Origin: Escherichia coli
GTDB lineage: Bacteria; Pseudomonadota; Gammaproteobacteria; Enterobacterales; Enterobacteriaceae
Assembly: GCF_022846255.1 (NCBI RefSeq)
Contig: NZ_AP025682.1
Direction: 5' to 3' (one strand)
DNA: 64,000 nt
Shown here: positions 3,105 to 23,114 of the stretch, piece after piece
Numbering within the stretch: the first letter of the stretch is position 1
Layout of the letters: each line of letters starts with the position of its first letter
The notes under the pieces: model-generated
Seen by the model: only the letters and a program-made list of their open reading frames with translations
Databases searched by the model: none
Told to the model about the DNA's origin: nothing
Position numbers and translations under genes: made by a program

Positions 3105-3109
3105 ATTGC

Positions 3110-3334: not shown

Positions 3335-3357
3335 GTTCGCTATGGCGAACTTTTTTT
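3335..3357 (+). terminator. Rho-independent terminator, candidate tR'-like terminator upstream of lysis genes
   Basis: Perfect hairpin GTTCGC-TATG-GCGAAC (3335-3350) followed by T7 (3351-3357). Confidence 0.55.
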
Positions 3358-3458
3358 GTATTCAGGGCCCACCGAAGGACGGCTCATAACCCAATCCTAC
3401 GGGCGTATACGCAGGGCCCGCCTTTCAACAACACCCCGTAATGGCGGAGGTGGGAAGT

Positions 3459-3800: not shown

Positions 3801-3803
3801 TTT

Positions 3804-4788: not shown

Positions 4789-4849
4789 TAGCATTACAGA
4801 AGCTCTTCCAGGAGGGGCTTCGATAATGACCTGATAACTGGAAAATAAA

Positions 4850-5422: not shown

Positions 5423-5424
5423 GT

Positions 5425-8513: not shown

Positions 8514-9138
8514 CAGTATCACGGAAATTATTGAGGCGCTGGAACGCTACAGTGAAATCATAACCCCCTGGGCGACAAAGGTCGCGGAAAACTTTACCGC
8601 CGACATTGTGCGCAAGAATGATGAGCAGTGGCGTAAACACAGCAAAACCATCAGCCGTGAGCTACGCAATCTGGTAAACAGTGCCCCTCCAGGGCAGGTG
8701 ATGAAATCCATCGTTGCTGAACAGGTTAAGTACATCAAATCGCTACCCCTCGAGGCGGCTGACAGGGTGTACGACATCCAGAATCGGGCGATAGAAGCTG
8801 TTGTTACCGGTGGGAGAGCGGAACATTTTGCTAAAGAAATAGCAGCATCGGGTGATATAGCAAAGTCCAGAGCTGACCTGATTGCCTGTACTGAACTTGG
8901 ACGTGCAACCGGCGCGCTGGATCAGGCGCGTGCGCTGTCAATTGGTTCGAATGGTTATATCTGGCGTACAGCCGAAGATGGTGATGTCAGGCATTCTCAT
9001 CGGGAAATGGAAGGTAAATTTGTCGAATGGGGCAAACCTCCAACGCTTGACGGCATGACAGGTCACGCTGGCGAGCTCCCGAATTGTCGCTGTAATAAAG
9101 AAATTGTTTTTCCCACCTCCCATTCTTACCCCGCCTGA
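8365..9138 (+). CDS. Head morphogenesis protein (Mu F-like / SPP1 gp7 family); start uncertain
   Basis: 257 aa; C-terminal region with NCRC motif as in F-like minor capsid proteins; overlaps portal 3' end by 149 nt if the 8365 ATG is used (alternative ATG at 8404). Confidence 0.6.
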   Translation: MPKTKRRPASANLMTNRRNRQAEIRYRTSLRRIARAVGDIVNGRYDGSNDSITEIIEALERYSEIITPWATKVAENFTADIVRKNDEQWRKHSKTISRELRNLVNSAPPGQVMKSIVAEQVKYIKSLPLEAADRVYDIQNRAIEAVVTGGRAEHFAKEIAASGDIAKSRADLIACTELGRATGALDQARALSIGSNGYIWRTAEDGDVRHSHREMEGKFVEWGKPPTLDGMTGHAGELPNCRCNKEIVFPTSHSYPA

Positions 9139-9152
9139 ATCGCAGGTAACAC

Positions 9153-10373
9153 ATGAAATATTTTTTCAATACCCGGCTGGGGGAAACCCGCTATCAGCTG
9201 GCTGACGGCTCGTTGCTGTGCAGAGACGTGCCGATAGGACGAACAGGTAAGCAGCTCTATGGTGCTGATGACCTGCCAAAACTGAAACCCGATAAGTTCG
9301 GTGAAATAGTCGTCACGCGTTCTCCTGAGCAGGTATTCCATCCCGCCACGCTTGCCTCATTCGAAGGAATGAGTATCACGGTGTTGCATCCCGAGGATGA
9401 AAACGGGGATGTGCGGCTGGTGAATCCAGAGAACTGGAAAGAGCTCGCGGTCGGGCATCTTCAGAATGTCCGGCGCGGGGCGGGTGTGCAGTCTGATTTG
9501 ATGCTGGCTGACCTTATCGTCAAAGACGAAAACGCCATTCAGCTGATCGAAGATGGCCTGCGCGAAGTGTCGTGTGGCTATGACGCGGAATATAAACAGG
9601 CTGAGCCGGGTAAGGCTCAGCAGGTCGATATTACCGGAAACCATGTGGCTCTTGTCCCTAAAGGCAGAGCCGGAAATCGTTGTGCAATTGGAGACAGAGA
9701 CACAATGGCAAATCAAAAGAAAAGCTGGTGGACCCGCATGCGCACGGCCATCAAAACGGGTGACGCTGACACCATGAACGAACTGGTGGAGTCGGCTCCC
9801 GCATCGGTTACAGGAGATGAGGGGGATTTGCCGCAGGGCGTTAATCTCAACATCAACCTGTCCCCGCAGCAACCGCTACCGGACAAAGCACCAGAGATGG
9901 GCGGAGGTCCAACCGGCGACAGTGATGATGACCTCAAAACATTACTGAAAGCCCTGCTGGCTAAGCTGGAAGGAAATGCGACGGGCGATAACGACAATAA
10001 GCCTGACGATAATCCGACCGGTGACGGCGAGGACGATGAAGAGGAAACCACGATTACTGGTGACTCAGCCTGGCGTGCCGAAGTTATCGTTCCGGGTATC
10101 GATCTGAGCCGTAAGATGAAACCGACCGCGTTCAAACGTGAGGTTCTGGCTTCTGCTGACAAAACGCTGGTTCGCCAGATAGTCGGTGATGCGGATATCC
10201 GCAAATTACCGAAACAATCGGTCGACATGGCGTTTAATGCCGTGTCTGAGATTGCCAAAGGGCGAAACACCCGCGCCACCACCGGCGATGCACAGCGCCC
10301 AAACATGGGCATGACCAGTATCGCTTCCCTGAACAAACAAAACGCTGAATTCTGGGCAAACCGTAAAGGGTAA
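9153..10373 (+). CDS. Putative head scaffolding/protease-like protein
   Basis: 406 aa; highly acidic low-complexity central region (GDGEDDEEETT); position between portal/F-like and capsid genes. Confidence 0.45.
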   Translation: MKYFFNTRLGETRYQLADGSLLCRDVPIGRTGKQLYGADDLPKLKPDKFGEIVVTRSPEQVFHPATLASFEGMSITVLHPEDENGDVRLVNPENWKELAVGHLQNVRRGAGVQSDLMLADLIVKDENAIQLIEDGLREVSCGYDAEYKQAEPGKAQQVDITGNHVALVPKGRAGNRCAIGDRDTMANQKKSWWTRMRTAIKTGDADTMNELVESAPASVTGDEGDLPQGVNLNINLSPQQPLPDKAPEMGGGPTGDSDDDLKTLLKALLAKLEGNATGDNDNKPDDNPTGDGEDDEEETTITGDSAWRAEVIVPGIDLSRKMKPTAFKREVLASADKTLVRQIVGDADIRKLPKQSVDMAFNAVSEIAKGRNTRATTGDAQRPNMGMTSIASLNKQNAEFWANRKG

Positions 10374-10376
10374 AAA

Positions 10377-10883
10377 ATGAATAATGTATTTCTGTACCGG
10401 ATGCCTGTTGGCATTGCCGGGGCCGTCTCTCGCCCGCAGGACTTAACCGTCGAACCGGTGGTCCTTAAATCCGATAACGCCTTCGCTGCCTATGGCCTGG
10501 CTGGTAAATACGATGATGACGGTTTTTTCGTGCCGCTGGCAGATGGTGATACCGCAGACAAGGTGAAGGGGATCTACGTGCGCCCTTATCCGACCACTTC
10601 GCAGCCGGACATGGTTCGCCAGGTGGGGACTGGCAAGAACTTCCCGGGCGACGCCATGAAGCGTGGCTACGTGACCGTTAATCTCGGTTCTGATTTTGAT
10701 GCCAGCACCATCAAAAAAGGCGACCCGGTATACGTTGTCGTCTCCACTGATGAATCCATCAAAGTGCCGCTGGGTGGATTCATGGCCACGTCAGTCAGTG
10801 GCAAAAACGTGGTGCTGACCAACGCTGAATTCACAGGTGCCGGTGATGCTGACGGCAATGCAGAAATTTCCTGGAAGATTTAA
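10377..10883 (+). CDS. Putative head structural/decoration protein
   Basis: 168 aa ORF tightly packed immediately upstream of the major capsid gene. Confidence 0.4.
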   Translation: MNNVFLYRMPVGIAGAVSRPQDLTVEPVVLKSDNAFAAYGLAGKYDDDGFFVPLADGDTADKVKGIYVRPYPTTSQPDMVRQVGTGKNFPGDAMKRGYVTVNLGSDFDASTIKKGDPVYVVVSTDESIKVPLGGFMATSVSGKNVVLTNAEFTGAGDADGNAEISWKI

Positions 10884-10894
10884 GGAACAGACGA

Positions 10895-11836
10895 ATGATT
10901 ACTTTTGATCAGGCAACCGTTGACAGCTCTGGTGCCTTTCTCATCGGGGAGCTGGAGCGACTCGACCAGACGCTGAACCTGCCACTGGTGGGGTACACCT
11001 GGACCCGCGATATTCAGTTGCGTGAAGATGTCTCCATCGCAGATGACATTTCCAGCTGGACGAATACCAGCTTCGCCGCTGCGGGTACTGGTGCAAATCC
11101 GAATGGCAAAAACTGGGTAGGCAAAGACTCAACCGCTATTGCTGGCGTGAACGTGGATATCGGCAAATCCGGTAACCCGCTGAACTTGTGGGGGATGGAA
11201 CTTGGCTGGACGGTCATAGAATTGCAGGCTGCTCAGCAGATCGGACGCCCGATTGATACGCAGAAGTATGACGGGATGCAACTGAAATGGCAGATGGATA
11301 ACGATGAACAGGTATATGTTGGCGATTCCGCATTAAACCTGAAAGGTCTTGTTACCCTGGACGGCGTGCCTGTCAACAACGCTGCCAAAACGTGGGCAAC
11401 CTCAACACCGGACGAAATCCGCGCAAGCATTAACCAGGTGCTGTCTGATGCGTGGGCCGCTTCCGGTTACTCTGTGGTTCCGCGTGATTTGCTGATCCCG
11501 CCTGAGCAGTTTGCTCTGTTGTCCAGCATCATCGTTTCATCTGCGGGTAACCAGTCCCTGTTGACGTACCTTCAGACCAACACCATCAGCTATCACCAGA
11601 ACGGTGTTCCGCTGAATATCCGCGCGGTTAAATGGCTGAAAGGCCGTGGTGTGGGGAATAAGGATCGCATGGTTGCGTACACCAACGATAAAAAATACGT
11701 CCGCTACCCGCTGGTTCCGCTTCAGAGCGTGCCGGTGCAGTATCGCGGTCTGTATCAGATCGTCACTTACTACGGCAAGCTGGGTGCAGTCGAGCCAGTG
11801 TACAAAGAAACCATTTCGTACGTTGATGGCATTTAA
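10895..11836 (+). CDS. Major capsid protein (putative)
   Basis: 313 aa; position after scaffold-like gene. Confidence 0.55.
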   Translation: MITFDQATVDSSGAFLIGELERLDQTLNLPLVGYTWTRDIQLREDVSIADDISSWTNTSFAAAGTGANPNGKNWVGKDSTAIAGVNVDIGKSGNPLNLWGMELGWTVIELQAAQQIGRPIDTQKYDGMQLKWQMDNDEQVYVGDSALNLKGLVTLDGVPVNNAAKTWATSTPDEIRASINQVLSDAWAASGYSVVPRDLLIPPEQFALLSSIIVSSAGNQSLLTYLQTNTISYHQNGVPLNIRAVKWLKGRGVGNKDRMVAYTNDKKYVRYPLVPLQSVPVQYRGLYQIVTYYGKLGAVEPVYKETISYVDGI

Positions 11837-11877
11837 CAGCCACATGGCCCCCTGGCGGGGCCATTAAGGATGACCCG

Positions 11878-12099
11878 ATGGCAAAAAATAATGCAGTAAT
11901 ACACGTACATACCCCGTTTGTGCTCACGCTTCCCGACGGTTCACGGCGCGAGTTTGTTAAAGGCCGTCATGCTGTGGAGGAAGACGTTGCCACGCACTGG
12001 TTCACTCGTGCGCACGCGGAAGTATCCGTTGGCAAAGCCACAGACGCGCGTAACGAGGTAAAAAATGCCAAAGAATCAAAGTCTGCCAGCGGTAAGTGA
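11878..12099 (+). CDS. Hypothetical small phage protein
   Basis: 73-aa ORF after the capsid gene; overlaps next ORF by 35 nt. Confidence 0.3.
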
Positions 12100-12472
12100 T
12101 TTTCGCCGCGACTTCCCGCAGTTTGCTGACCCTGCCAAATATCCCGAAGCGCAAATCCAGTTTCGTCTGAATCTGGCCGATGAACTGCTGAGCGAAAACG
12201 TCACCGGCAAAAAGTTGTTTCCGTACTTTGCCGGGTTGTTCGTTGCGCACTACATGACGCTCTGGGCGGCAGACAGCCGGGCGATGCTGGCTGGCGGGCC
12301 GGGCGGTTCAACCAATGGTGTTCAGTCCTCAAAGTCCGTGGATAAGGTAAGCGTCAGTTATGACACCAGCGCGACGCTGAATCCTGATGCAGGTTTCTGG
12401 AATAACACCCGATATGGCGCTGAATTTTATCAGTTGATCACGATGTTCGGTGCAGGTGGTCGCCAGCTATGA
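12065..12472 (+). CDS. Putative head-tail connector / head completion protein
   Basis: 135 aa; position in head-tail joining block. Confidence 0.4.
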
Positions 12473-13023
12473 GTTTCAAAAGCGGTGTAACAACGAGGGT
12501 GGATAACGCTAAGGCTATTCTGGATGCGCTCAGGTCGTTAACCAAAAAAGATGTGCTGGTCGGCATCCCTTCGGAAGACAGCGAGCGGGATGATGTTCCG
12601 TTTGGTAATGCGGGCATCGGTTACCTCAACGAATACGGCTCACCAGAGCAGAACATCCCGCCACGACCTCACCTGGTCCCCGGCGTTAAATCGGCAGAAG
12701 AGCAGACGGTGCCGCAGCTCAAAGCCGCGGCGCAGGCTGCACTTGATGGTAATGCTGCGGGAGCAGAAAGCGTACTCAACCGTGCCGGAACACTGGCCGC
12801 TAATGGCGTCAGGCGTTACATGACCATTACCGGCTTTACGCCGCTTGCTGACAGTACTGTTGAAGCCCGGGCTCGTCGGGGGCGCAAGGGGGCAACACTG
12901 GAACTTGCCCGGCGTGCTGCTGGCGAATCCCCGGGAACCGAACTGGCGAAACCATTAATTGACACCGGGCAATATCGCAGAGCGATTACCCATGTTGTGA
13001 GGGATAAAAATGCCGACTCTTGA
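12469..13023 (+). CDS. Putative neck / head-tail joining protein
   Basis: 184 aa; ATGA-coupled to previous gene. Confidence 0.4.
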
Positions 13024-13399
13024 TGTAACAGATGTGCTTTTTGACCCCGATTTTTGCGATTTCAATTTGTGGGTAACACGCCGTGTGCAAACGGTGGATG
13101 AGGACGGGATCGGCAGCGACAGCGAAGTTAAAAAGCAGTTTGCCGGAGTCGTAACTGTTGATCGCTCTCTGGAAAACCGTCGTATGCAGGCCGGGCAGGT
13201 AGTCAGTGGTGCAATTCTGATTGTGACGACTGAGCGACTGACGCAGGGACAGACTGGCCGTGATGCCGATATCGTGACGTATCAGGGCCGTGATTATCGT
13301 GTGACTTTCGTCGACCCGTATACAGCGTATGGTGCCGGATTCGTTCAGGCGCATTGTGAGTTGCTGCCGTTTGATGGGGGAATTCCGGTTGAGCAATAA
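13010..13399 (+). CDS. Putative neck / tail completion protein
   Basis: 129 aa; overlapping start typical of a phage structural operon. Confidence 0.4.
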   Translation: MPTLDVTDVLFDPDFCDFNLWVTRRVQTVDEDGIGSDSEVKKQFAGVVTVDRSLENRRMQAGQVVSGAILIVTTERLTQGQTGRDADIVTYQGRDYRVTFVDPYTAYGAGFVQAHCELLPFDGGIPVEQ

Positions 13400-13937
13400 C
13401 ACCAGCACAGAGCGCGGATGGCTGATACCAACCAGTGGCGATCCGGATTATGACGAAGCGCTCGACAGGCTGTTAAGCCAGTGGATGCGTAACGTTTCCG
13501 GTCTGTCTGCCGGGATGGTTCGCCCGCGCTGGCAGAAAGAGCAGCCGCCACTGCTACCGGCTGAAACGAACTGGTGTGCGTTTGGGGTTATCGGATGGTC
13601 AGGTGATGACAGTCCGGCATTCACCAGACAGACTGATGATGGCTCTCAGCTCTGGCGGCATGAAACGATTGAGTGTATGGCTTCGTTTTATGGTCCGGCG
13701 GGGATGGTGTATGCGTCCCGGTTTCGTGACGGTATATCTGTACCGCAGAACAACGCAGCACTGAATGTGCTGGGGCTGTCTCTTGGCGATTACACAGGTC
13801 TGACTCCCTTCCCTGAACTTATTAATCAGCAATGGGTCCGCCGCTACGATATGACGGTGCGTCTGCGCCGGAAGGTTGTGCGCGAGTACGGTATTAAATC
13901 GCTGGTGGAAGCACCAGTCATCTTTTTCGGAGATTAA
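13389..13937 (+). CDS. Putative tail completion protein (start uncertain: TTG 13389 or ATG 13329)
   Basis: ORF in structural operon; the 13329 start would overlap the previous gene by 70 nt, while TTG at 13389 overlaps its stop. Confidence 0.35.
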   Translation: MSNNTSTERGWLIPTSGDPDYDEALDRLLSQWMRNVSGLSAGMVRPRWQKEQPPLLPAETNWCAFGVIGWSGDDSPAFTRQTDDGSQLWRHETIECMASFYGPAGMVYASRFRDGISVPQNNAALNVLGLSLGDYTGLTPFPELINQQWVRRYDMTVRLRRKVVREYGIKSLVEAPVIFFGD

Positions 13938-13940
13938 GCT

Positions 13941-15086
13941 ATGGCACAGGGCTTGCCTGTATCAAACGTTGTTAATGTTGATGTGATCATGTCGCCACGT
14001 GCAGCATCAGGGCGAAATTTTGGTGCATTACTCATTCTCGGCCCGTCCACAATCATTCCGGTAAGTGAGCGCATTCGCCGTTATTCTGCCGCGGAAGATA
14101 TTGGAAAAGATTTTGGCGTGGAATCACCAGAATATAAGGCTGCGCAGGTGTTTTTCTCTCAATCACCGAAACCTCAGGAGGTTTTTGTTGGTCGTTGGGT
14201 GAAAACGAAGGGAGACAGCGAACAGGCCACGCCTGAGACGCTGGAGCAGGCTGTGAATGCCATGCTCGATTATACTTCATGGTATGGGCTGGGGATTGCA
14301 GACGATGCAGATATTCCGGATGCAGACTGGCTGAAAGTGGCTGCGGCGATCGAATCCTCTTCTGTAAGCCGTATTCTGGCGATTACGACAAGCGATGAGA
14401 AATGCCTGCAGACTGCATCCAGCGATGATTTGGCATCAAAACTGAAAACCGCCGGATATTCACGCAGTTTTATTCAGTATTCATCGGGTAATAAATACGC
14501 TGCGTTATCTGCATTTGGCCGGGCATTCACGGTTAATTTCAATGGCAGTAATACCGCGATTACGCTCAAGTTTAAGCAGGAGCCGGGCGTCGGGTATGAA
14601 ACACTGACAGTCAGCCAGGCATCGGCACTTGATGCAAAAAACTGCAATGTATTCGTGTACTACCAGAATGATACGGCTATCCTCCAGCAGGGAGTGATGG
14701 CTAACGGCGATTTCTTTGATGAACGCCACGGCCTGGACTGGTTACAGAATTATGTGCAGACCAACCTCTATAACCTGCTTTATACCAGCGCCACGAAAGT
14801 ACCCCAGACTGAAGCCGGTATTACCAGACTGTTATCAAGTGTTGAAAAATCACTGGATCAGGCCGTTCAGAATGGACTGATTGCTCCGGGCGTATGGAAC
14901 GGTGGCGACCTGGGTCAGTTGTCATCAGGTGACACGCTGCCCAAAGGTTATTACGTATACGCCCAGCCACTGGATGAACAGGCACAATCAGAACGTGAAG
15001 CCCGTAAGGCTCCGGTGATTCAGGCTGCAATAAAACTTGCAGGCGCGGTTCATTACGCTGACGTACAGATTAACGTTGTTCGCTAA
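13941..15086 (+). CDS. Putative tail sheath-like protein
   Basis: 381 aa, immediately upstream of a ~146-aa tube-like gene, a chaperone with frameshift, and the tape-measure gene. Confidence 0.4.
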
Positions 15087-15096
15087 GGGGAAGTGA

Positions 15097-15537
15097 ATGT
15101 CTACCTATTCTTTTATGGATGTCACTGCGACGCTGACCGGGCCGACCGGTTCGATTGACCTCGGGTACGGTTCGGCAAGTTCTGAAGAGGGGATTGTGGT
15201 TGCGATGGGCGGTCCTAAAAACACCATGACCATCGGTGCTGATGGCGAAGTGATGCACAGTCTCCATGCAGATAAAAGCGGGACGATTACCGTTAACCTT
15301 CTGAAGACATCACCGACAAATAAAAAATTGTCGCTGGCGTATAACGCACAGAGCCAGTCTTCTGCCACATGGGGGAATAACGTTATCGTGATCCGCAACA
15401 AGGTCAGCGGCGACATCATCACGGCACGCAGTGTTGCGTTCCAGAAACAACCGGATAACGCCAACGCTAAAACCGGTAATACGATGCCGTGGGTGTTTGA
15501 CTGCGGCAAGATTGACCAGGTTCTCGGGGAGTTTTAA
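15097..15537 (+). CDS. Putative tail tube protein
   Basis: 146 aa; position between sheath-like gene and tail assembly chaperone. Confidence 0.4.
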   Translation: MSTYSFMDVTATLTGPTGSIDLGYGSASSEEGIVVAMGGPKNTMTIGADGEVMHSLHADKSGTITVNLLKTSPTNKKLSLAYNAQSQSSATWGNNVIVIRNKVSGDIITARSVAFQKQPDNANAKTGNTMPWVFDCGKIDQVLGEF

Positions 15538-15540
15538 TAC

Positions 15541-15993
15541 ATGGAATTCGAAATCAAAGGCGTGAAATATCGCGTGGTAAAACTCAGCGTTTTTGACCAA
15601 CTGAAAGTGACCCGCAAACTTCTGCCGGTGCTGGCAGGAATGATGTCAGATTTCGGGAGCATTCGCTCCCGTTTGCCTGCTGATGGCAAAATCGACACCG
15701 TGAAATTCGAGCAGTTAAAACCGGTGTTTGAAACCATGCTCCCGCGTATCGCTGAGGAACTGTCTTCCCTGACCGAAGATGACACCAGTGCGATTATTCA
15801 TCCCTGTCTTGCGGTGGTATCGCGGCGTCATATGGACGGATGGGTTCCGGTATTTACCCAGGGCGAACTGATGTTTGATGATATTGACTTGCTGGTCATG
15901 CTGCAGCTGGTGGCGCGGGTGGTCGCCGATTCGCTGGGAAATTTTTTGCCTACACCCCTTACCAGCACGACGCAGAGCCTGCAACAGGGCTGA
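15541..15993 (+). CDS. Tail assembly chaperone (G-like); a -1 frameshift extension (GT-like) is predicted to 16181
   Basis: 150 aa immediately upstream of tape-measure gene; slippery run A_AAT_TTT_TTG at 15939-15948; the -1 frame is open from there to TGA at 16179-16181. Confidence 0.55.
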   Translation: MEFEIKGVKYRVVKLSVFDQLKVTRKLLPVLAGMMSDFGSIRSRLPADGKIDTVKFEQLKPVFETMLPRIAEELSSLTEDDTSAIIHPCLAVVSRRHMDGWVPVFTQGELMFDDIDLLVMLQLVARVVADSLGNFLPTPLTSTTQSLQQG

Positions 15994-16149
15994 CGTTTAA
16001 CAGCCTGCCGGACGGGCTGTCCTACCTTCTCAATCCGGTTGACGCCGGGTTAATTCCTTATACAGCACTTAAAGATGGCTCTGTCGATTTGTACGATATT
16101 GCTCTTTTGAATGACCATCTGGCGGTAAAAGCGGATAACCAGCGGCGCA

Positions 16150-18159
16150 TTGAGAAATGGAGAGAGGATAATGAACGCTGAAACTATTAAAGATTTCCTC
16201 GTCTCGCTTGGCTTCAGTGTGGATGATGCAGGAGCGAAAAAGTTCGGTTCTGTCCTCGCCGGTACAACTGCAAATGTCATCAAAATGGGGCTGGCCGTTG
16301 AAGGAGCCGCGCTGTCCGTGGTGGCCTTCACGGCTAAGATCGCCTCCGGTCTGGATAATCTTTACTGGGCGTCACAGCGCACTGGAGCGACAGTCCAGGG
16401 AATTCAGTCTATTGGCTATGCGGTTTCGCAGGTTGGCGGCAGCGTGGACGCTGCGCGATCTTCTCTGGAAAGCCTCTCCCGGTTTATTCGTAATAATCCC
16501 GGTGCAGAGGGATTTCTGAATCGCCTGGGGGTACAGACACGGGATGCCAGCGGTAACATGCGTGACATGGCCGCTATTTTTACAGGTGTAGGCCAGAAGC
16601 TCAGCGGCATGCCGTATTACCGGGCTAACCAGTATGCGCAGATGCTGGGCATTGACGAAAATACCCTTATGGCGATGCGTCGGGGTGTGGGTGGTTTCTC
16701 CGGGCAGTACAGCGCAATGGCGAAAGCTATCGGCTTCAATGCTGACGAGGCGGCCAGAAGCTCCAACAAATTTATGACCTCCCTGCGTGAGTTTAGCGCG
16801 ATGGCAGGCATGGCCCGTGACAAAATCGGCTCTAATCTTGCGGGTGGACTTGCGGGGTCGCTGGACACCCTGCGCCGCCATATCCTGGACAACTTCCCGC
16901 GCATCGAGCAGACTCTGACGAAAGCCATAAAAGGCATTCTGGCGCTCGGGGATATTATCGGGCGGCTGTTCTTCAGACTGATTGAGGGGACATCAGGCCT
17001 TATCACCTGGTGGCAATCGCTGGATAAGCAAACGCGGGAGTTGATCTCGCTGTTTGGCGCACTGACGATTGCGCTGCGCATTCTGAACAGTACGTTCTGG
17101 ATGTCGCCGATTGGCCTCATTACCGCGCTGGCGGCGGGGATTGCCCTCCTGTGGGAGGACTATCAGACCTGGAAGGAAGGCGGCGACAGCCTGATTGACT
17201 GGGGCAAGTGGAAACCGGAGGTCGATGCCGCGCTGAAGATGGTTCGTGACCTTAAAACGACCGTTAACGACCTGGCGAAAGCGCTGGCGAAACTACTCAA
17301 TATTGACCCCAAATCATGGTCCCTGAAGTGGGATTTCAGCAACTTCATCGACCAGATGGGCGAATTCAGCAAAATGCTGAACATGATCGCCGACCTGCTC
17401 AACGCTATCAAAGATGGCCGCTGGGCTGATGCCGTCAGCATCGGCAAACAGATACTTAATCAGGGCAGCGAAAATCCGTCAGCGATGCCGATGGTTACAG
17501 ACAGCGCTAACAGTACTGCCGACTGGATTAAAGAGCACTGGGGATTCGATCCCCGCAGTGTGGGCCGAACGGTACGCGGCTGGTTTGGTGATGATGAGCC
17601 GGAACAACATGCACAGGCTACGAAACGAGGAGAACGGAATAACAATCCGGGAAACCTTAATTTTGCTGGTCAGGCGGGGGCTTCTCTTGAACGCCCGGGC
17701 GGGCGATTTGCCAGATTCGAAACTGCCTTTGATGGATTACGGGCTCTTGCTCGTCAGTTAATGTTGTACGCCGGACGTGGAATAAACAGCGTGGAGAAAA
17801 TTATCTCTACCTGGGCGCCTGCGTCTGATAATAACAACACAACTGCGTATATCAGGGCTGTATCGCAACGACTGGGAGTGGATCCCCGGGCTGCCCTGAA
17901 TATGAGCGATCCGCAAACCATGTCAGCATTGATGAGCAGCATTATCCAGCATGAAAATGGAAGAAATATCTATTCTCAAGAGCTGATTAATAAGGCTGCC
18001 GTGGCGGGAATTAGTGGCAAAGTGACAGAGGTTAACCAGCAAAATACCTACCACATTTACGGTGGCGGAGATCCGCACGTTGTCGGTAATGAGGTTGCAC
18101 GTCGGCAACAGTCTGCAAATGCTCAGGTCATGCGAAGTAATCAGGTGAGGGTGAGTTAG
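16150..18159 (+). CDS. Tail tape-measure protein
   Basis: 669 aa, helical/Gly-Ala-rich N-terminal half; likely true start is ATG 16171 (GAGAGAGGA SD); the ORF track starts at TTG 16150. Confidence 0.7.
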   Translation: MRNGERIMNAETIKDFLVSLGFSVDDAGAKKFGSVLAGTTANVIKMGLAVEGAALSVVAFTAKIASGLDNLYWASQRTGATVQGIQSIGYAVSQVGGSVDAARSSLESLSRFIRNNPGAEGFLNRLGVQTRDASGNMRDMAAIFTGVGQKLSGMPYYRANQYAQMLGIDENTLMAMRRGVGGFSGQYSAMAKAIGFNADEAARSSNKFMTSLREFSAMAGMARDKIGSNLAGGLAGSLDTLRRHILDNFPRIEQTLTKAIKGILALGDIIGRLFFRLIEGTSGLITWWQSLDKQTRELISLFGALTIALRILNSTFWMSPIGLITALAAGIALLWEDYQTWKEGGDSLIDWGKWKPEVDAALKMVRDLKTTVNDLAKALAKLLNIDPKSWSLKWDFSNFIDQMGEFSKMLNMIADLLNAIKDGRWADAVSIGKQILNQGSENPSAMPMVTDSANSTADWIKEHWGFDPRSVGRTVRGWFGDDEPEQHAQATKRGERNNNPGNLNFAGQAGASLERPGGRFARFETAFDGLRALARQLMLYAGRGINSVEKIISTWAPASDNNNTTAYIRAVSQRLGVDPRAALNMSDPQTMSALMSSIIQHENGRNIYSQELINKAAVAGISGKVTEVNQQNTYHIYGGGDPHVVGNEVARRQQSANAQVMRSNQVRVS

Positions 18160-18746
18160 TGGATATTCTCTCTACACTTTTTCATCAGCAGAGCAGAAAA
18201 ATAGGAATGATTGTTCCCAGTGTTGTTATTTCAGAGAAGCATACAGATATGCTTGAAATAACCGAGCATCCGGTAGAAGTCGGGGCCGCTGTCGCTGATC
18301 ATGCCTATAAAAAACCGTCAGAAGTGGTGATGGAGGTTGGTTTCGCCGGTGGCGGCGCATTGCTGGATTTTGCCAGTAATCTGACGGCTACCAGCCTGCT
18401 CGGCCTGAGTCCTCAGCAGACGTATCAGGAGCTACTGGATCTGCAGGAAAGCCGTATCCCCTTCGATGTGGTAACCGGTAAACGACTGTACAGCAACATG
18501 TTGATCCGGGCGCTGGAAGTGACGACGGACAAGACAACCGAAAACGTCCTGTCCGCCGTTCTTACCCTGAGGGAGGTCCTTATCTCCCGGACACAGCAGA
18601 TTACCGTCGCGGATAAAACCAATATGAAGGAAGGGGCCAGCACCTCGGCGGTACAGAACAGCGGCAACAAAACCACAAAACCTCCAGATACTTCACTGCT
18701 GAAAAGCATCACGGGTAACGTGGCGTCATTACTGGGGGGCGGCTAA
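18159..18746 (+). CDS. Putative tail/baseplate protein
   Basis: 195 aa; GTG start overlapping tape-measure stop. Confidence 0.4.
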   Translation: MDILSTLFHQQSRKIGMIVPSVVISEKHTDMLEITEHPVEVGAAVADHAYKKPSEVVMEVGFAGGGALLDFASNLTATSLLGLSPQQTYQELLDLQESRIPFDVVTGKRLYSNMLIRALEVTTDKTTENVLSAVLTLREVLISRTQQITVADKTNMKEGASTSAVQNSGNKTTKPPDTSLLKSITGNVASLLGGG

Positions 18747-19048
18747 TGACAATTCAGGAAATTCCGCTGACAGCGGACAACCAGCAGTTCAGCATCGTCC
18801 TGGGTGGTGTCACCTGGCGGATTAGCATCATATGGCGCGATCTTTACTGGATTATGGACCTGCTGAATGACAGAGGGGAGCCGGTAATCTCCGGTATTCC
18901 TCTCGTCACTGGCGCTGATCTGCTGGCGCAGTACGCCTGTATGGGACTTGGTTTTAAGCTGTTGGTGGTCTGCGATGACAACACACAGGATTATCCCACG
19001 AAAACTGACTTGGGCGGGCGCAGTCATTTACTGGTATTAACGGAGTAA
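18746..19048 (+). CDS. Putative tail/baseplate protein
   Basis: 100 aa; coupled start. Confidence 0.35.
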   Translation: MTIQEIPLTADNQQFSIVLGGVTWRISIIWRDLYWIMDLLNDRGEPVISGIPLVTGADLLAQYACMGLGFKLLVVCDDNTQDYPTKTDLGGRSHLLVLTE

Positions 19049-19050
19049 GC

Positions 19051-20112
19051 ATGTCACAGAACTGGATGAGACATTTCGAGCTGCAGCTTGTGGACGGGAA
19101 CGGTCAGGGAATTGAGCTAAGTGATTTCAAAGTCACCTTTACGATCGACTGGTTCAACATCAGCAGCGCGTCCCGGGTAGGGACTATCAAAATTTATAAC
19201 CTTTCGGCAGATACTGTGAACCGAATTACCGGGCAGGAGTTTTCGAAAGTGCGTCTGATTGCGGGTTACGACGGTATCGCGCCGGAGGTGTCGGCAAGCG
19301 ACGTCGGGACAGTGCGGGAAGTTGACGCGGCGGACGTGGGCCAGAGTGATGGTCGCAACTACGGACTGATTTTCAGCGGTGAAATTCGCTACTCGGTCAC
19401 AGGAAAAGACAGTCCGGTTGATTCCTACGTCCTGATTCAGGCAGCAGATACTGATCTGGCTTTTGCCACCAGTATAACCTCACAGACGCTGGCTGCCGGT
19501 TACACGGTCGCTGATGTGAACCGTGCGCTGATGAAAGACTTCGAAGCCAAAGGTGTGACCGAAGGCCTGACGCCTGAAATGCCTGCTACTGTATTCCCCC
19601 GGGGGCGGGTGCTCTTTGGCATGACGCGGCATCTAATGGATAACGTAGCCGGGCAATGTGGCGCAACATGGCAATTCGTGGACGGTCAGCGCCAGATGGT
19701 GGCGACTAATGAATATGTTCACGAAGCGATTGTGCTCAACAGTGCTACCGGGCTTATTGGCATGCCGCAGCAGACCATCGGCAACGGCGTAAACGTCCGC
19801 GCTCTTATTAATCCGAACATCCGGGTTAACGGGCTCATTCAGCTGGATCAGGCTTCCGTCTATCGTACCGCGTTGTCGAACAACGATATTGCGATGGCTG
19901 GTGGTCAGATCACCGACCAGAACACGGACGGAAATATCACGCTCAGCGGCACCACATCGCAGCCTGCCAGCATCGCAACGGATGGAGTTTATATTGTGCG
20001 CGGGATTATGTACAGTGGCGATACAAGGGGCCAGGCGTGGTACATGGATATGATGTGCGAAGCGCGTGGCGCGGCGGATCTGTATACGCAATCGGCTTTG
20101 CAAAGGGGATGA
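19051..20112 (+). CDS. Putative baseplate hub protein (Mu gp44 / P2 gpD-like by position)
   Basis: 353 aa; directly upstream of baseplate spike, gp46-, J- and gp48-like genes. Confidence 0.4.
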   Translation: MSQNWMRHFELQLVDGNGQGIELSDFKVTFTIDWFNISSASRVGTIKIYNLSADTVNRITGQEFSKVRLIAGYDGIAPEVSASDVGTVREVDAADVGQSDGRNYGLIFSGEIRYSVTGKDSPVDSYVLIQAADTDLAFATSITSQTLAAGYTVADVNRALMKDFEAKGVTEGLTPEMPATVFPRGRVLFGMTRHLMDNVAGQCGATWQFVDGQRQMVATNEYVHEAIVLNSATGLIGMPQQTIGNGVNVRALINPNIRVNGLIQLDQASVYRTALSNNDIAMAGGQITDQNTDGNITLSGTTSQPASIATDGVYIVRGIMYSGDTRGQAWYMDMMCEARGAADLYTQSALQRG

Positions 20113-20115
20113 GCA

Positions 20116-20457
20116 ATGAGGGGTATTATTTTTCTGTTAGCTGTCTTTTCTGCGTGCAGCGCGTGGGCGGATGGCTTCACGGTTAAATGCGGTGGCTACA
20201 CTATGGTTGCAAACCAGGGCGAGTTATCGACAATCAACGGTGAAAGAGTTACCTCTCAAAAAATCACCGAACTGGGTACCAATGGTTTGAAAGTAGACAT
20301 GGGGCTTATGCCTGCCAAAGACGGTAACAACTACGGCTTTGAATACATTCGTCGCCCTGGTACCGAAACGCGATTCCTGAATGTCCAACTGCTGCAGAAC
20401 AGCATGGATGCGCCGAAAATCATCGGTTCCTTTCCATGCAAAAAGATTGTTGATTAA
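20116..20457 (+). CDS. Small exported protein (signal peptide; possible lipoprotein); moron inserted in the baseplate operon
   Basis: 113 aa; N-terminus MRGIIFLLAVFSACSAWADG (signal peptide; AWA-DG SPI site or FSAC lipobox-like); two later Cys; AGGGGA SD. Confidence 0.55.
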   Translation: MRGIIFLLAVFSACSAWADGFTVKCGGYTMVANQGELSTINGERVTSQKITELGTNGLKVDMGLMPAKDGNNYGFEYIRRPGTETRFLNVQLLQNSMDAPKIIGSFPCKKIVD

Positions 20458-20474
20458 TCACTCGTAATTATAAT
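20447..20474 (+). promoter_or_regulatory. Putative sigma70 promoter for the small membrane-protein gene
   Basis: -35 TTGTTG (20447-20452), 16-nt spacer, -10 TATAAT (20469-20474), about 36 nt upstream of the ATG at 20511. Confidence 0.4.
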
Positions 20475-20510
20475 GTGGTACTTCTACTTTCACGATAAGG
20501 AATTTGTCGC

Positions 20511-20750
20511 ATGTTCGGATTTGATAAATTAATAACTCCAAAAATCATCAACGTTCTGTATGGCATCACAATGTTACTTCTGGTTGTTGCCGCCATTATA
20601 ACGTTTGTTAATGGGAAGGCTGCTGGCGCTTTAGTGCTTTTGTTATGTGCTGTATTTTGCCGAATATTCTTTGAGTGCATCATGGTTTCATTTAAAAACA
20701 ATGAGTATCTTCGCCGAATAGCTGAAGCGTTAGAAGCAAACAAGCAGTAA
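20511..20750 (+). CDS. Small membrane protein (two predicted TM helices); moron
   Basis: 79 aa; two hydrophobic helices (ITMLLLVVAAIITFV, ALVLLLCAVFCRIFFECIMV); AAGGA SD; followed by a strong terminator. Confidence 0.55.
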   Translation: MFGFDKLITPKIINVLYGITMLLLVVAAIITFVNGKAAGALVLLLCAVFCRIFFECIMVSFKNNEYLRRIAEALEANKQ

Positions 20751-20768
20751 TGAAACTTCAATAATGAA

Positions 20769-20790
20769 CCCGCCACCCGGCGGGTTTTTT
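20769..20790 (+). terminator. Rho-independent terminator
   Basis: CCCGCC-ACCC-GGCGGG hairpin followed by T6. Confidence 0.6.
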
Positions 20791-20809
20791 GCTTTCTGGA
20801 GCCTACTAA

Positions 20810-21562
20810 ATGGCAGTATCTGACCAGACCCGCAGCGGCGACCTTGCCGAAACATTCAAATCTGAACGGGAAACAACAAAGAACCAGATCCGTGTCGCCT
20901 TGCCTGGCATTGTTCAGTCATTCGATCCCGACGCGGTGACGGCGGTTGTGCAGCCAGCTATCCGTTCGGTTGAAAAGGATAACGACGGTAACCGCATTAC
21001 CAAAAATTACCCGTTGCTGGTGGATGTGCCAGTGGTATTTCCGCGCGGCGGAGGCTGTACGTTGACTTTTCCGGTTAAAGCCGGGGATGAGTGTCTTGTC
21101 GTTTTTGCCGATCGTTGTATTGATTTCTGGTGGCAGAGCGGTGGGATACAGGAGCCGGTCGATGACAGAATGCATGATTTATCGGATGCGTTTTGTATTG
21201 CCGGTCCCCAGTCGCAGGCGAGGAAGATTAGCGGTATTAATACCAGTGCCACACAGTTGCGTAGTGACGACGGCAGCACCTATTTTGAGCTTAATCCTGA
21301 TACCCGGAAAATTAAAATTGTCGCCCCGGGTGGTCTTGATGTGGTTGCCCCTCTGGCTGATTTTTCTGAGAAAGTAACCATTCATGGCCTATTAACCTGG
21401 ATGGGGGGCATGGTGGGGTCTGTTGTTTCTGGTGTGGCTTCAAAAATCACTGGTGCTGTTGAGTTCTTGGGGAGCGTTAAGGCTAACGGCAAGCCAATCG
21501 ATGATACGCACACTCATGGCGGTGTTCAGCGCGGTGGAAGCAATACCGATGGGGTAAACTGA
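20810..21562 (+). CDS. Putative baseplate spike protein (gpV / Mu gp45-like)
   Basis: 250 aa; C-terminal THTHGG motif; position before gp46/J-like genes. Confidence 0.45.
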   Translation: MAVSDQTRSGDLAETFKSERETTKNQIRVALPGIVQSFDPDAVTAVVQPAIRSVEKDNDGNRITKNYPLLVDVPVVFPRGGGCTLTFPVKAGDECLVVFADRCIDFWWQSGGIQEPVDDRMHDLSDAFCIAGPQSQARKISGINTSATQLRSDDGSTYFELNPDTRKIKIVAPGGLDVVAPLADFSEKVTIHGLLTWMGGMVGSVVSGVASKITGAVEFLGSVKANGKPIDDTHTHGGVQRGGSNTDGVN

Positions 21563-21915
21563 TGCGATACAGACGTGAAGACGCCGATGGCGATTACACC
21601 TTTGGCAGCGGTGATGACACCTGGCTGATTAACTCACCGGAGGCCGTGGCGCAGGCGGTAAAAACGCGATTCGAATTGTGGTATGGGCAATGGTTTCTCG
21701 ACACCACCGAGGGGACTCCGTGGATCCAGTCCGTGCTGGGCAGGCAAAAACCGGAAACTTACAACCTGGCGATCAGAAAACGCATTCTGGAAACGCGGGG
21801 CGTTAAATCAATCCTCTCTTTCAATACGACGGTGGATACCACGACCCGACGTGTCATGTTTTCCGCTGAAATCGACACTCTCTATGGAATAACGACTGTT
21901 ACATCGGAGGCGTAA
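21562..21915 (+). CDS. Putative baseplate protein (Mu gp46 / gpW-like)
   Basis: 117 aa; ATGA-coupled to flanking baseplate genes. Confidence 0.4.
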   Translation: MRYRREDADGDYTFGSGDDTWLINSPEAVAQAVKTRFELWYGQWFLDTTEGTPWIQSVLGRQKPETYNLAIRKRILETRGVKSILSFNTTVDTTTRRVMFSAEIDTLYGITTVTSEA

Positions 21916-23114
21916 TGGCTCTGAACCTTGATTCTCTCGGTTTATCTGCAAAGGTAACCGCGGAGGGGATCAGTGCGCCTGATTATCAGACGATACTCAG
22001 CACCCTGATTAGCTATTTTCAGCAGATTTATGGCAGTGATGCCTACCTCGAACCGGACAGCAAAGACGGCCAGATGGTGGCTCTGACGGCGCTGGCGATT
22101 CATGATGCCAATAATATGGCGATAACTGTCTACAACTGTTTTTCACCGGCAACCGGCTATGGGGCTGCACTGACCAGTAACGTGAAAATAAATGGTATTT
22201 CACGTAAAGGCGCGACGAACTCTACGGTTGATTTGCTTCTTACAGGAACTGCCGGAACAACCATCATTAATGGCAGCGTGAAAGACAGTAATAATGTGAT
22301 ATGGCGTTTGCCTGCTTCAGTGGTGGTCGGCGTGGATGGTACAGTGATGGCGACCGCAACATGTTCCGTCAGTGGTGCAGTGGCGGCGCTGGCTGGAACT
22401 ATCACTGAAATTAATACGCCAACCCGTGGCTGGGTTTCGGTAACTAATCCTGCTGCGGCTACTGTTGGCTCTCCGGCAGAAACTGATGCTGAGTTACGTA
22501 TCCGCCAGTCGCAAAGTGTTGCGTTGCCATCAATAACCCCATTTGAAGCACTGGATGGTGCTGTTTCTAATGTTACCGGTGTAACCCGCCACAAACTCTA
22601 TGAAAACGATACTGGTTCGGAGGACGGTAACGGGTTACCGCCACACTCTGTTGCTGTAATTGTGGATGGCGGTGATGTGACGGATATTGCTCAGGCTATC
22701 AGAGGGAATAAAGGCCAGGGGACAGCCACTCACGGTACAACATCCGTTACGGTTCCGGATAAATACGGCAATCCCCATGTAATCAAATTCTCGCGTTCCA
22801 GTGATGTGCCTGTTTATGCCCGGATTAAATTAAAAGTTTTTACGGGTTATACCTCACAGATAGGGCAGCAGATCCAGCAGGCTATTTCCGACTATATCAA
22901 TAGTTTGACGATTGGTGATTCGGTCCTTTTAAGTCGCATTTACTCACCGGCGAATCTTGGCGTGGTGAGTGGCGGGAATGCACGCTATTACGATATTCAG
23001 GAACTGACGATTGGGAAATCCCCGGGGGCTTTGTCGTCATCAAACATTGATATCAGATACAACGAATCTGCGTCCTGTACCCCGGAAAATATCGTTATAA
23101 CGGTGGAGTCATGA
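21915..23114 (+). CDS. Putative baseplate J-like protein (Mu gp47-like)
   Basis: 399 aa; position and size in Mu-like baseplate order. Confidence 0.5.
   Translation: MALNLDSLGLSAKVTAEGISAPDYQTILSTLISYFQQIYGSDAYLEPDSKDGQMVALTALAIHDANNMAITVYNCFSPATGYGAALTSNVKINGISRKGATNSTVDLLLTGTAGTTIINGSVKDSNNVIWRLPASVVVGVDGTVMATATCSVSGAVAALAGTITEINTPTRGWVSVTNPAAATVGSPAETDAELRIRQSQSVALPSITPFEALDGAVSNVTGVTRHKLYENDTGSEDGNGLPPHSVAVIVDGGDVTDIAQAIRGNKGQGTATHGTTSVTVPDKYGNPHVIKFSRSSDVPVYARIKLKVFTGYTSQIGQQIQQAISDYINSLTIGDSVLLSRIYSPANLGVVSGGNARYYDIQELTIGKSPGALSSSNIDIRYNESASCTPENIVITVES

What the first reader, a model, noticed from the sequence alone, without database searches (positions are those of the whole stretch)
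15939..16181. Predicted -1 programmed frameshift in the tail assembly chaperone (G/GT-like)
The slippery run A_AAT_TTT_TTG lies 15 codons before the chaperone stop. The -1 frame is open from there for about 78 codons and ends at 16179-16181, overlapping the tape-measure start. This mirrors the conserved lambda G/GT arrangement.
Basis: partly seen in the sequence, partly recalled or inferred. Interest (0 to 1): 0.45.

Follow-up and report, generated by a model that had tools for sequence, protein, structure and literature searches.

The report
Tail chaperone -1 frameshift site
An E. coli prophage almost certainly makes a second, longer version of its tail assembly chaperone by letting a few ribosomes slip back one base, the same trick phage lambda uses for gpG/gpGT; it is ordinary biology, but E. 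coli genome annotation misses it.

Summary
The gene at 15541-15993 (Pfam Phage_TAC_15) lies between the tube gene and the tape-measure gene. It contains CTG GGA AAT TTT TTG, which gives three overlapping in-phase slippery heptamers at 15936-15948. The -1 frame is open to a TGA at 16179-16181, which overlaps the tape-measure ATG at 16171.

The pattern alone is not rare in this window. Comparison with relatives decides the case:
- The -1 stretch encodes a conserved domain (Pfam DUF6889, E 1e-20) and has no ATG, GTG or TTG start ahead of it.
- In 98 of 98 related loci, down to about 30% identity, that domain lies in the -1 frame. In 96 of them a phased heptamer sits at the same L-G-x-F position although its sequence changes; the other two have only a non-canonical U_UUU site.
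- Synonymous-site conservation in the chaperone gene peaks at the site.
- 79 of 80 close homologues keep the frame open.

A_AAU_UUU (15939-15945) is probably the main shift site. I found no conserved downstream RNA structure. An upstream Shine-Dalgarno-like GGUGG is a possible stimulator.

This is a new member of a well-known kind. Two relatives (phages Mulock and Magia) already carry the frameshift annotation. RefSeq E. coli instead lists a 54-aa "DUF6889 family protein" starting at CTG. Nothing has been tested experimentally, and the efficiency is unknown.

The parts
13941..15086 (+). Tail sheath gene (381 aa). Context only.
   Evidence: Pfam DUF3383 E 5e-101 and phrog_205 'tail sheath' E 3e-135.
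15097..15537 (+). Tail tube gene (146 aa). Context only.
   Evidence: Pfam KPP10_Orf10 (DUF3277) E 9e-61. It sits directly upstream of the chaperone gene.
15541..15993 (+). Tail assembly chaperone, zero-frame product (150 aa). This is the gpG analogue.
   Evidence: Pfam PF21822 Phage_TAC_15 at 107 bits against a cut-off of 22, and phrog_1688 'tail assembly chaperone' E 1.5e-64. RefSeq names it 'phage tail assembly chaperone'.
15918..15924 (+). Candidate upstream Shine-Dalgarno-like stimulator GGUGGUC. This part is inferred.
   Evidence: Its predicted duplex with the 16S 3' end is -11.7 kcal/mol, and the mean profile over 78 loci has its minimum here. [quoted passage not shown]
15936..15948 (+). 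Slippery run GGGAAATTTTTTG. It holds three in-phase heptamers: G_GGA_AAU, A_AAU_UUU (the likely main site) and U_UUU_UUG.
   Evidence: Read directly from the sequence. The run is identical in 80 of 80 close homologues and in SEN34, YP3 and Mulock. Synonymous-site identity peaks here at 0.8-0.95 against a baseline of 0.4-0.6. Measured frameshifting values are from PMC4066793 Table S3.
15945..16181 (+). The -1 frame extension (78 codons plus stop), the gpT analogue. The predicted fusion protein is 213 aa and reads ...SLGNF-FAYTPYQ...
   Evidence: Translation. Pfam DUF6889 E 1.2e-20 and phrog_4364 E 1.9e-23. The first ATG, GTG or TTG in this frame is the TTG near 16086. The frame is intact in 79 of 80 close homologues.
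16017..16181 (+). The stretch RefSeq/PGAP annotates as a stand-alone 54-aa 'DUF6889 family protein'. It starts at CTG and is probably a mis-annotation of the frameshift extension.
16171..18159 (+). Tape-measure protein gene with a C-terminal lytic transglycosylase region. Its ATG is overlapped by the stop codon of the -1 frame.
   Evidence: phrog_2276 'tail length tape measure protein' E 2e-282. GGAGAGAGGA lies upstream of the ATG.

Best explanation
This is a programmed -1 ribosomal frameshift in the tail assembly chaperone gene of a temperate E. coli phage with a contractile tail, related to Salmonella phage SEN34 and Klebsiella phage Mulock.

Most ribosomes translate 15541-15993 and release a 150-aa chaperone. 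A minority slip back one nucleotide while the P- and A-site tRNAs sit on the run G_GGA_AAU_UUU_UUG. The most likely site has tRNA-Asn on AAU and tRNA-Phe on UUU, re-pairing to AAA and UUU. These ribosomes continue in the -1 frame to 16181 and make a 213-aa fusion (...SLGNF-FAYTPYQ...) that carries the DUF6889 domain.

By analogy with lambda gpG/gpGT, both proteins would coat the tape-measure protein through the shared N-terminal domain. The rare C-terminal domain would recruit the tube protein, and neither protein would end up in the virion.

Shown here: the anatomy of the site, the conservation of the frame relationship and of slipperiness, and the coding signature of the -1 frame. Inferred: that shifting actually occurs, its efficiency, which heptamer is used, and what the extension does. 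No downstream RNA structure is conserved. An upstream Shine-Dalgarno-like GGUGG (15918-15922) may act as a stimulator.
For: - Gene order is sheath, tube, chaperone, tape measure, with curated-level family hits.
- The -1 frame encodes Pfam DUF6889 (E 1e-20) and phrog_4364 (E 2e-23), and no canonical start precedes the conserved part. PGAP has to use a CTG start.
- A tblastn search with the fusion against 50,697 phage records found 40 records, each matching in two pieces.
- In all 18 inspected loci and all 80 further IMG/VR loci (34-100% identity to the Bordetella phage chaperone), the DUF6889 part lies in the -1 frame. In 96 of these 98 a phased X_XXY_YYZ heptamer sits at the homologous L-G-x-F position.
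- The heptamer sequence varies between clades: AAATTTT, TTTTTTT/C, CCCTTTT, GGGTTTT, GGGAAAT. Of 78 distinct contexts, 65 fall in the H_HH.U_UU.Y class that PMC4066793 ranks among the most efficient in E. coli.
- Synonymous-site identity across 39 chaperone genes peaks at 0.8-0.95 over codons 133-139, against a baseline of 0.4-0.6.
- 80 of 80 close homologues keep the run and 79 of 80 keep the -1 frame open.
- AlphaFold2 folds the fusion confidently (pLDDT 90, pTM 0.80), and its best viral structural matches are tail assembly chaperones.
- The same frameshift is already annotated in the relatives Mulock (MN098327) and Magia (NC_070954).
- The system is well established for lambda and other long-tailed phages (PMC5009743).
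Against: - There is no experimental evidence for the fusion protein in this phage or any relative I found. No held paper mentions DUF6889, and the Mulock paper does not discuss the shift.
- Without a stimulator, the three heptamers give only 0.07-0.12% frameshifting in reporter assays, close to background (PMC4066793 Table S3).
- I found no significant or conserved downstream structure. The local fold has z = -0.49, and the alignment consensus is -1.35 kcal/mol with no covarying pairs. How a useful efficiency is reached is therefore unexplained.
- The Shine-Dalgarno-like signal is confounded by conserved K/R-V-I/V and E-N residues. In the window it sits at the edge of the accepted spacing for A_AAU_UUU.
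- Two distant relatives (Edwardsiella phage ZHS and Burkholderia phage vB_E192a) lack a canonical heptamer and have only a U_UUU site.
Confidence: 0.9

Rival explanations
1. Transcriptional slippage. RNA polymerase adds one extra U while copying the T6 run (15942-15947), so a fraction of the mRNAs carry the extension in frame. The resulting fusion protein (...GNFFAYT...) would be identical to the product of ribosomal frameshifting.
For: The window has a run of six T, and many relatives have a run of seven. PMC4066793 notes that UUUUUUU is under-represented in all three frames, possibly because of transcriptional slippage. The protein product cannot tell the two mechanisms apart.
Against: Whole clades keep the -1 arrangement without a long homopolymer. 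Examples are GGGAAATAC/ATATTTTC (13 contexts) and CCCTTTTAT (T4 only) in the Burkholderia and Acinetobacter phages. What is conserved is codon-phased X_XXY_YYZ slipperiness, and polymerase slippage does not need phasing. From my own knowledge, runs of six are short for efficient slippage by E. coli RNA polymerase. A minor contribution in the window cannot be excluded.
Confidence: 0.05
2. Independent small gene, as RefSeq annotates it. The DUF6889 ORF would be translated on its own from the CTG at 16017 or another non-canonical start as a protein of about 54 aa. The slippery run would be a by-product of the conserved L-G-N-F residues.
For: PGAP and several phage records annotate a separate small CDS here. 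That 54-aa sequence is on record on at least 999 contigs.
Against: There is no ATG, GTG or TTG before about 16086, and the annotated start is CTG. Different annotators chose different starts in different phages. Homology in the -1 frame runs upstream of those starts, right up to the slip site; the tblastn matches with the extension begin at the slip site. Codon choices that create the heptamer are maintained even in high-GC phages (GGC CCT TTT), and synonymous variation is suppressed at the site. The frame offset is -1 in 98 of 98 loci, which independent genes would not need.
Confidence: 0.04
3. Chance open frame. The -1 ORF would be untranslated spacer sequence between the chaperone gene and the tape-measure gene.
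For: Phased heptamers followed by long open -1 frames are not rare in this window; 10 of 93 have at least 78 open codons.
Against: The stretch matches a curated Pfam domain and a PHROG family. It is conserved at the protein level down to about 30% identity in hosts from Acinetobacter to Burkholderia.
Confidence: 0.01

Closest known systems
Phage lambda gpG/gpGT tail assembly chaperone frameshift (Levin, Hendrix and Casjens 1993; Xu, Hendrix and Duda 2004, 2013, 2014; reviewed in PMC5009743)
   Same: Two overlapping ORFs lie between the tube gene and the tape-measure gene. [quoted passage not shown] The result is a short abundant product and a rare C-terminally extended fusion. I know of no requirement for a strong downstream structure in lambda, and none is seen here.
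   Different: There is no detectable sequence similarity to gpG or gpT. The families here are Phage_TAC_15 and DUF6889, and the N15 GT protein appears only at Foldseek E = 2. The virion has a contractile tail, so a sheath gene is present. The likely main heptamer is A_AAU_UUU rather than X_XXA_AAG. The function of the extension is untested.
Phage P2 E/E+E' and the Mu tail chaperone pair (contractile-tail examples of the same conserved frameshift; Xu et al. 2004; P2 efficiency noted in PMC5009743)
   Same: These are myophage tail modules with the chaperone frameshift immediately upstream of the tape-measure gene.
   Different: No family-level sequence match was found at E <= 0.1. The baseplate here resembles the Pam3/E217-type simple baseplate rather than that of P2 or Mu.
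Annotated 'tape measure chaperone frameshift product' of Klebsiella phage Mulock (MN098327, QFG06717.1) and Burkholderia phage Magia (NC_070954, YP_010668111.1)
   Same: These are true homologues, at 58% and about 36-42% identity. They have the same -1 arrangement at the same L-G-x-F position. Mulock has the identical GGGAAATTTTTTG run.
   Different: Magia uses C_CCU_UUU. Both annotations are predictions by the depositors and have not been tested experimentally.
E. coli dnaX and IS911-type -1 frameshift signals with an upstream Shine-Dalgarno-like stimulator (Larsen et al. 1994; criteria in PMC4066793)
   Same: A sequence complementary to the 16S 3' end lies 6-17 nt upstream of the heptamer. 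By the published criterion it is present in 73% of 78 family contexts, against 12% at control positions.
   Different: There is no downstream hairpin. The pairing uses GGUGRUC (the 16S AUCACC region) rather than the GGAG core. In the window the spacing is at the outer limit for A_AAU_UUU. The signal is confounded with conserved amino acids.

Membership tests
Tail assembly chaperone (gpG-like) proteins | Sequence or fold membership in a recognised tail assembly chaperone family | tested here: met
   Pfam PF21822 Phage_TAC_15 at 107 bits against a cut-off of 22, and phrog_1688 E 1.5e-64. The AlphaFold2 model matches BFVD tail assembly chaperones at E 2.5e-8. There was no PDB match by sequence or Foldseek.
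Conserved G/GT-type tail chaperone frameshift (Xu et al. 2004) | Two overlapping ORFs located between the major tail/tube gene and the tape-measure gene | tested here: met
   Tube gene 15097-15537, chaperone 15541-15993, -1 ORF to 16181, tape-measure gene from 16171.
Conserved G/GT-type tail chaperone frameshift (Xu et al. 2004) | The second ORF is in the -1 frame, lacks its own start, and overlaps the 3' end of the first ORF | tested here: met
   The -1 frame is open from 15888 to 16181. The first ATG, GTG or TTG in it is near 16086, and the PGAP start is CTG.
Conserved G/GT-type tail chaperone frameshift (Xu et al. 2004) | A slippery X_XXY_YYZ heptamer, phased to the zero frame, inside the overlap | tested here: met
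   Three heptamers lie at 15936-15948. A_AAU_UUU belongs to the efficient H_HH.U_UU.Y class in E. coli.
Conserved G/GT-type tail chaperone frameshift (Xu et al. 2004) | The arrangement (frame offset and slippery site) is conserved in diverged relatives although sequences change | tested here: met
   The -1 offset holds in 98 of 98 loci, and a phased heptamer is present in 96 of 98, with at least six different heptamer sequences. Synonymous suppression occurs at the site.
Conserved G/GT-type tail chaperone frameshift (Xu et al. 2004) | A fusion protein is actually produced at a low, fixed ratio and is needed for tail assembly | not testable with these tools
   This needs proteomics, reporter assays and genetics. 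No published data were found for this family.
Conserved G/GT-type tail chaperone frameshift (Xu et al. 2004) | The extension (T domain) binds the tube protein and the shared domain binds the tape-measure protein | not tested
   Inferred by analogy with lambda (PMC5009743). Complex prediction or pull-down experiments were not done.
-1 frameshift signals with an RNA stimulator (IS3, IS911 or dnaX type) | A conserved downstream hairpin or pseudoknot 5-9 nt after the heptamer | tested here: not met
   The local fold is not better than shuffled sequences (z = -0.49 and +0.30). RNAalifold on 21 clade members gives -1.35 kcal/mol with no covarying pairs. A GGGCUGCU...AGCAGCCC stem seen by eye in the Burkholderia clade was not tested and has no counterpart in the window.
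-1 frameshift signals with an RNA stimulator (IS3, IS911 or dnaX type) | An upstream Shine-Dalgarno-like sequence 6-17 nt before the motif | tested here: inconclusive
   [quoted passage not shown] The criterion is met in 57 of 78 contexts, against 12% background. The Val codon at the site is GTG in 59%, against 38% elsewhere. The sequences are related to one another and the residues are conserved, so selection on the RNA is not proven.

The most novel reading that the evidence does not exclude
The family may achieve its frameshift without any downstream RNA structure. It would combine several overlapping, individually weak heptamers (three in a 13-nt run here) with an upstream pairing between the mRNA (GGUGRUC) and the AUCACC part of the 16S rRNA 3' end. 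If so, this is a compact, structure-free -1 frameshift cassette conserved from Acinetobacter phages to Burkholderia phages. DUF6889 would then be a previously unrecognised T-domain family specific to contractile tails.
Probability: 0.25. Interest if true: 0.45.

Novelty: new member of a known kind. Interest (0 to 1): 0.25.

Why it matters
The mechanism is textbook, so the biological surprise is small. The practical value is in annotation.

This prophage family is present in 336 of 5,426 complete E. coli genomes. RefSeq represents the extension as a free-standing 54-aa "DUF6889 family protein" starting at CTG. Older records call it "NTP pyrophosphohydrolase". The 213-aa fusion is absent from a collection of about 15 billion proteins.

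Recognising DUF6889 as the frameshift-encoded C-terminal domain of Phage_TAC_15 chaperones gives that domain of unknown function a role. It would also correct thousands of records.

The set of 78 distinct natural contexts is a ready-made comparative series. It could be used to study which heptamers and which upstream Shine-Dalgarno-like elements set low-level frameshift ratios in bacteria when no downstream structure is present.

Tried and rejected
1. Downstream stimulatory structure. Folding 15946-16030 and 15890-16060 gave energies no better than shuffled sequences. RNAalifold on 21 clade members gave essentially no consensus structure and no covariation. I rejected this for the window.
   - The long-range pairing GCUGGUGG...CCUUACCAGC that encloses the slip site in the 171-nt fold is not conserved in Mulock. 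It would also be melted by the ribosome.
   - The hairpin at 16000-16020 lies 55 nt downstream, which is too far. It also coincides with the conserved L-P-D-G codons.
2. Statistical rarity of the pattern within the window. It is not rare, so I did not use it as evidence.
3. Chi site as the reason for nucleotide conservation upstream. The Chi octamer at 15906-15913 is lost in phages yong1 and Omnitron, while the downstream GTGGCGCGGGTGGTCGCC is kept. Chi is therefore not the conserved element.
5. Published evidence. A search for DUF6889 returned no papers, and the Mulock announcement does not mention the frameshift. The gene-family screen in PMC4066793 did not include the A_AA.U_UU.U pattern, so it could not have found this family.
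6. The first search for related loci with the single protein returned only relatives of 92-99% identity. These served for the intactness test but not for divergence, so I repeated the search with an alignment headed by the Bordetella phage sequence.
Full report
**What is in the sequence**

The window carries a contractile-tail morphogenesis module on the + strand:
- sheath, 13941-15086 (DUF3383, phrog_205);
- tube, 15097-15537 (KPP10_Orf10/DUF3277);
- a 150-aa ORF, 15541-15993;
- a tape-measure protein with a lytic transglycosylase region, ATG 16171 to 18159 (phrog_2276, E 2e-282).

The 150-aa ORF is a tail assembly chaperone. It matches Pfam PF21822 Phage_TAC_15 at 107 bits against a cut-off of 22, and phrog_1688 at E 1.5e-64.

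Its last codons read CTG GGA AAT TTT TTG CCT ..., and the stop TGA is at 15991-15993. The -1 frame reads GGG AAA TTT TTT GCC TAC ... and stays open from 15888 to a TGA at 16179-16181. That stop lies inside ATGAACGCTGA, the start of the tape-measure gene.

The 13-nt run GGGAAATTTTTTG holds three overlapping heptamers, all phased X_XXY_YYZ to the chaperone frame: G_GGA_AAU (15936), A_AAU_UUU (15939) and U_UUU_UUG (15942). A shift on either of the first two gives ...LGNFFAYT.... A shift on the third gives ...LGNFLAYT....

**Is the pattern more than chance?**

By itself it is not. A mechanical scan found 93 phased heptamers in 114 ORFs of at least 100 aa in this window. Ten of them are followed by at least 78 open -1 codons, mostly because the -1 frame is the next gene or lies antisense to a real one. 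The case rests on other evidence.

**The -1 frame is coding but has no start**

The 78-codon extension matches Pfam DUF6889 (E 1.2e-20) and phrog_4364 (E 1.9e-23). No ATG, GTG or TTG occurs in that frame before about 16086, which is downstream of the beginning of the conserved region.

RefSeq/PGAP nevertheless annotates a separate 54-aa "DUF6889 family protein" whose first codon is CTG, equivalent to window 16017. Other depositors chose other arbitrary starts or left the stretch unannotated. No promoter-like site lies in the region.

**Comparative evidence**

The locus is an E. coli prophage. It is 99.7% identical to strain NCTC9022 and is present in 336 of 5,426 complete genomes. It is 98% identical to phages vB_EcoM-606R2 and its relatives, 84% to Yersinia phage YP3, 75% to Salmonella phage SEN34 and about 73% to Klebsiella phage Mulock.

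A tblastn search with the predicted fusion found 40 phage records, and each matched in two pieces. I analysed 18 loci in detail, with hosts including Klebsiella, Hafnia, Citrobacter, Elizabethkingia, Bordetella, Providencia, Ralstonia, Burkholderia, Acinetobacter and Edwardsiella. In all 18 the DUF6889 part is in the -1 frame relative to the chaperone. A second set of 80 IMG/VR loci, 34-100% identical to the Bordetella phage chaperone, gave 80 of 80 in the -1 frame.

The slippery heptamer always sits at the homologous L-G-x-F position, but its sequence changes from clade to clade:
- GGGAAATTTTTTG in the enteric clade;
- GGGAAAT alone in the Bordetella-like clade;
- TTTTTTT or TTTTTTC;
- GGGTTTTTTC;
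- CCCTTTT in high-GC Burkholderia phages, where CCT and TTT are disfavoured codons;
- AAATTTT alone in some Acinetobacter phages.

Two loci have only a non-canonical U_UUU site (GAT TTT A and TCT TTT A). Slipperiness and phase are conserved while the sequence varies. That is the signature expected of a programmed shift, not of a coincidence.

Three further results point the same way:
- In a codon alignment of 39 distinct chaperone genes, the fraction of identical codons among same-residue pairs is 0.4-0.6 along the gene. It rises to 0.8-0.95 over codons 133-139 (15937-15957), the highest value apart from the 5' end.
- All 80 close homologues keep the run.
- 79 of 80 keep the -1 frame open for 80 or 83 codons, ending on the tape-measure start; one is cut at 37 codons.

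**Which heptamer, and how efficient**

Sharma et al. 2014 (PMC4066793) measured all 64 heptamers in E. coli. They rank V_VV.A_AA.R and H_HH.U_UU.Y among the most efficient. Their Table S3 gives these values:

| Heptamer | No stimulator | IS911 stimulators | IS3 pseudoknot |
|---|---|---|---|
| AAAUUUU | 0.07% | 0.36% | 11.4% |
| GGGAAAU | 0.07% | 0.11% | 1.05% |
| UUUUUUG | 0.12% | 0.25% | 0.77% |

Across the family, 65 of 78 distinct contexts contain an H_HH.U_UU.Y motif.

Without a stimulator all three heptamers are close to background. The efficiency here is therefore an open question.

**Stimulators**

I found no downstream element. The local folds are not better than shuffled sequences (z = -0.49 and +0.30). 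An RNAalifold consensus of 21 clade members from the slip site to +100 is -1.35 kcal/mol with no covarying pairs. The nucleotide conservation just downstream is explained by dual coding, because F-A-R-T-P-Y-Q-R is conserved in the -1 frame.

Upstream there is a candidate. GGUGGUC (15918-15924) can form seven pairs with the 16S 3' end, at -11.7 kcal/mol. Only 1.2% of 8-mers in these genes reach -8 kcal/mol or lower. The mean duplex-energy profile over 78 contexts has its minimum at this position, typically as AAGGUGAUC.

[quoted passage not shown] At other in-frame positions of the same genes the figure is 12%. The conserved Val codon is GTG in 59% of contexts against 38% elsewhere, and the preceding codon ends in G in 79% against 49%.

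These sequences are phylogenetically related and the residues (K/R-V-I/V, E-N) are conserved. The element remains a hypothesis. In the window its spacing to A_AAU_UUU (17 nt) is at the limit of the accepted range.

**Structure**

AlphaFold2 was run on a 34-sequence alignment of predicted fusions. It gave a confident model (mean pLDDT 90.1, pTM 0.80), with the extension at pLDDT around 96.

**Rivals**

- Transcriptional slippage on the T6 run would give the same protein. However, clades without a long homopolymer keep the arrangement, and strict codon phasing is not needed for polymerase slippage. A minor contribution is not excluded.
- Independent translation of a 54-aa DUF6889 protein is what RefSeq implies. 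It requires a CTG start, ignores -1 frame homology that runs up to the slip site, and does not explain a -1 offset in 98 of 98 loci.
- A non-coding spacer is excluded by the domain matches.

**Comparison with what is known**

This works like lambda gpG/gpGT. In lambda, a low-level -1 shift sets a ratio of about 30:1, the shared domain binds the tape-measure protein and the T domain binds the tube protein. The arrangement is conserved among long-tailed phages despite low sequence similarity (PMC5009743).

All computable defining features are met. Production of the fusion and its function are untested. It is not a sequence relative of gpG or gpT. It belongs to the Phage_TAC_15 and DUF6889 families, and its baseplate resembles the Pam3/E217 type.

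Depositors have already annotated the same frameshift in two homologues, Mulock and Magia. The finding is therefore a new member of a known kind, and arguably already known at the family level. The exact fusion sequence is absent from a collection of about 15 billion proteins, whereas the 54-aa fragment is recorded on at least 999 contigs.

**Verdict**

Interest is low to moderate. The value lies in correcting annotation and in assigning a role to DUF6889. A modest open question remains about how a structure-free site built from weak heptamers reaches a useful efficiency.

Noticed in passing
window 1320-21023 (+ strand); whole window: Chi octamers (GCTGGTGG) are about ten-fold enriched: 21 in the window against 2.1 expected from shuffles. 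Eighteen are on the + strand. Ten lie in the prophage late region and all ten are on the + strand. One (15906-15913) sits 26 nt upstream of the slippery run.
   Followed up: partly
window 20116-20457 and 20511-20750: Two small ORFs interrupt the tail/baseplate gene string. One is a 113-aa protein with a signal-peptide-like N-terminus (MRGIIFLLAVFSACSAWA) and no Pfam hit. The other is a 79-aa DUF4282 membrane protein. Both look like morons, that is, accessory cargo genes.
   Followed up: partly
window 16017-16181; L004 1977-2141: RefSeq/PGAP annotates the frameshift extension as a stand-alone 54-aa 'DUF6889 family protein' beginning at a CTG codon. Some older records name the same sequence 'NTP pyrophosphohydrolase', which is probably a propagated mis-annotation (also for Klebsiella phage records).
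   Followed up: yes
L086, L090, L096, L098, L113, L133, L149, L167, L171 (Burkholderia-type clade), 6-8 nt after CCCTTTT: This clade shows a possible downstream hairpin, GGGCUGCU..(13 nt)..AGCAGCCC. Apparent compensatory variants are GGACUG...CAGUCC in Acinetobacter phage MD-2021a (L095) and GGACUACU...AGCAGUCC in L149. I saw this by eye. It has no counterpart in the window's own clade.
   Followed up: no
L137 (IMGVR_UViG_2791354900_000015), -1 frame 1209-2030: In this relative the -1 frame runs on for about 270 codons. It passes from the DUF6889 domain into a sequence resembling a baseplate-J-like protein, with no tape-measure gene in between. This is probably a deletion or an assembly chimera.
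   Followed up: no
window 18746-23114: The baseplate genes match families defined from the simple myophage baseplates of cyanophage Pam3 (gp18 plug) and Pseudomonas phage E217 (gp41 hub, a weak hit below the Pfam cut-off). They also match the gpV spike N-terminal domain, the Apex motif and Baseplate_J.
   Followed up: partly
[not shown]
   Followed up: no
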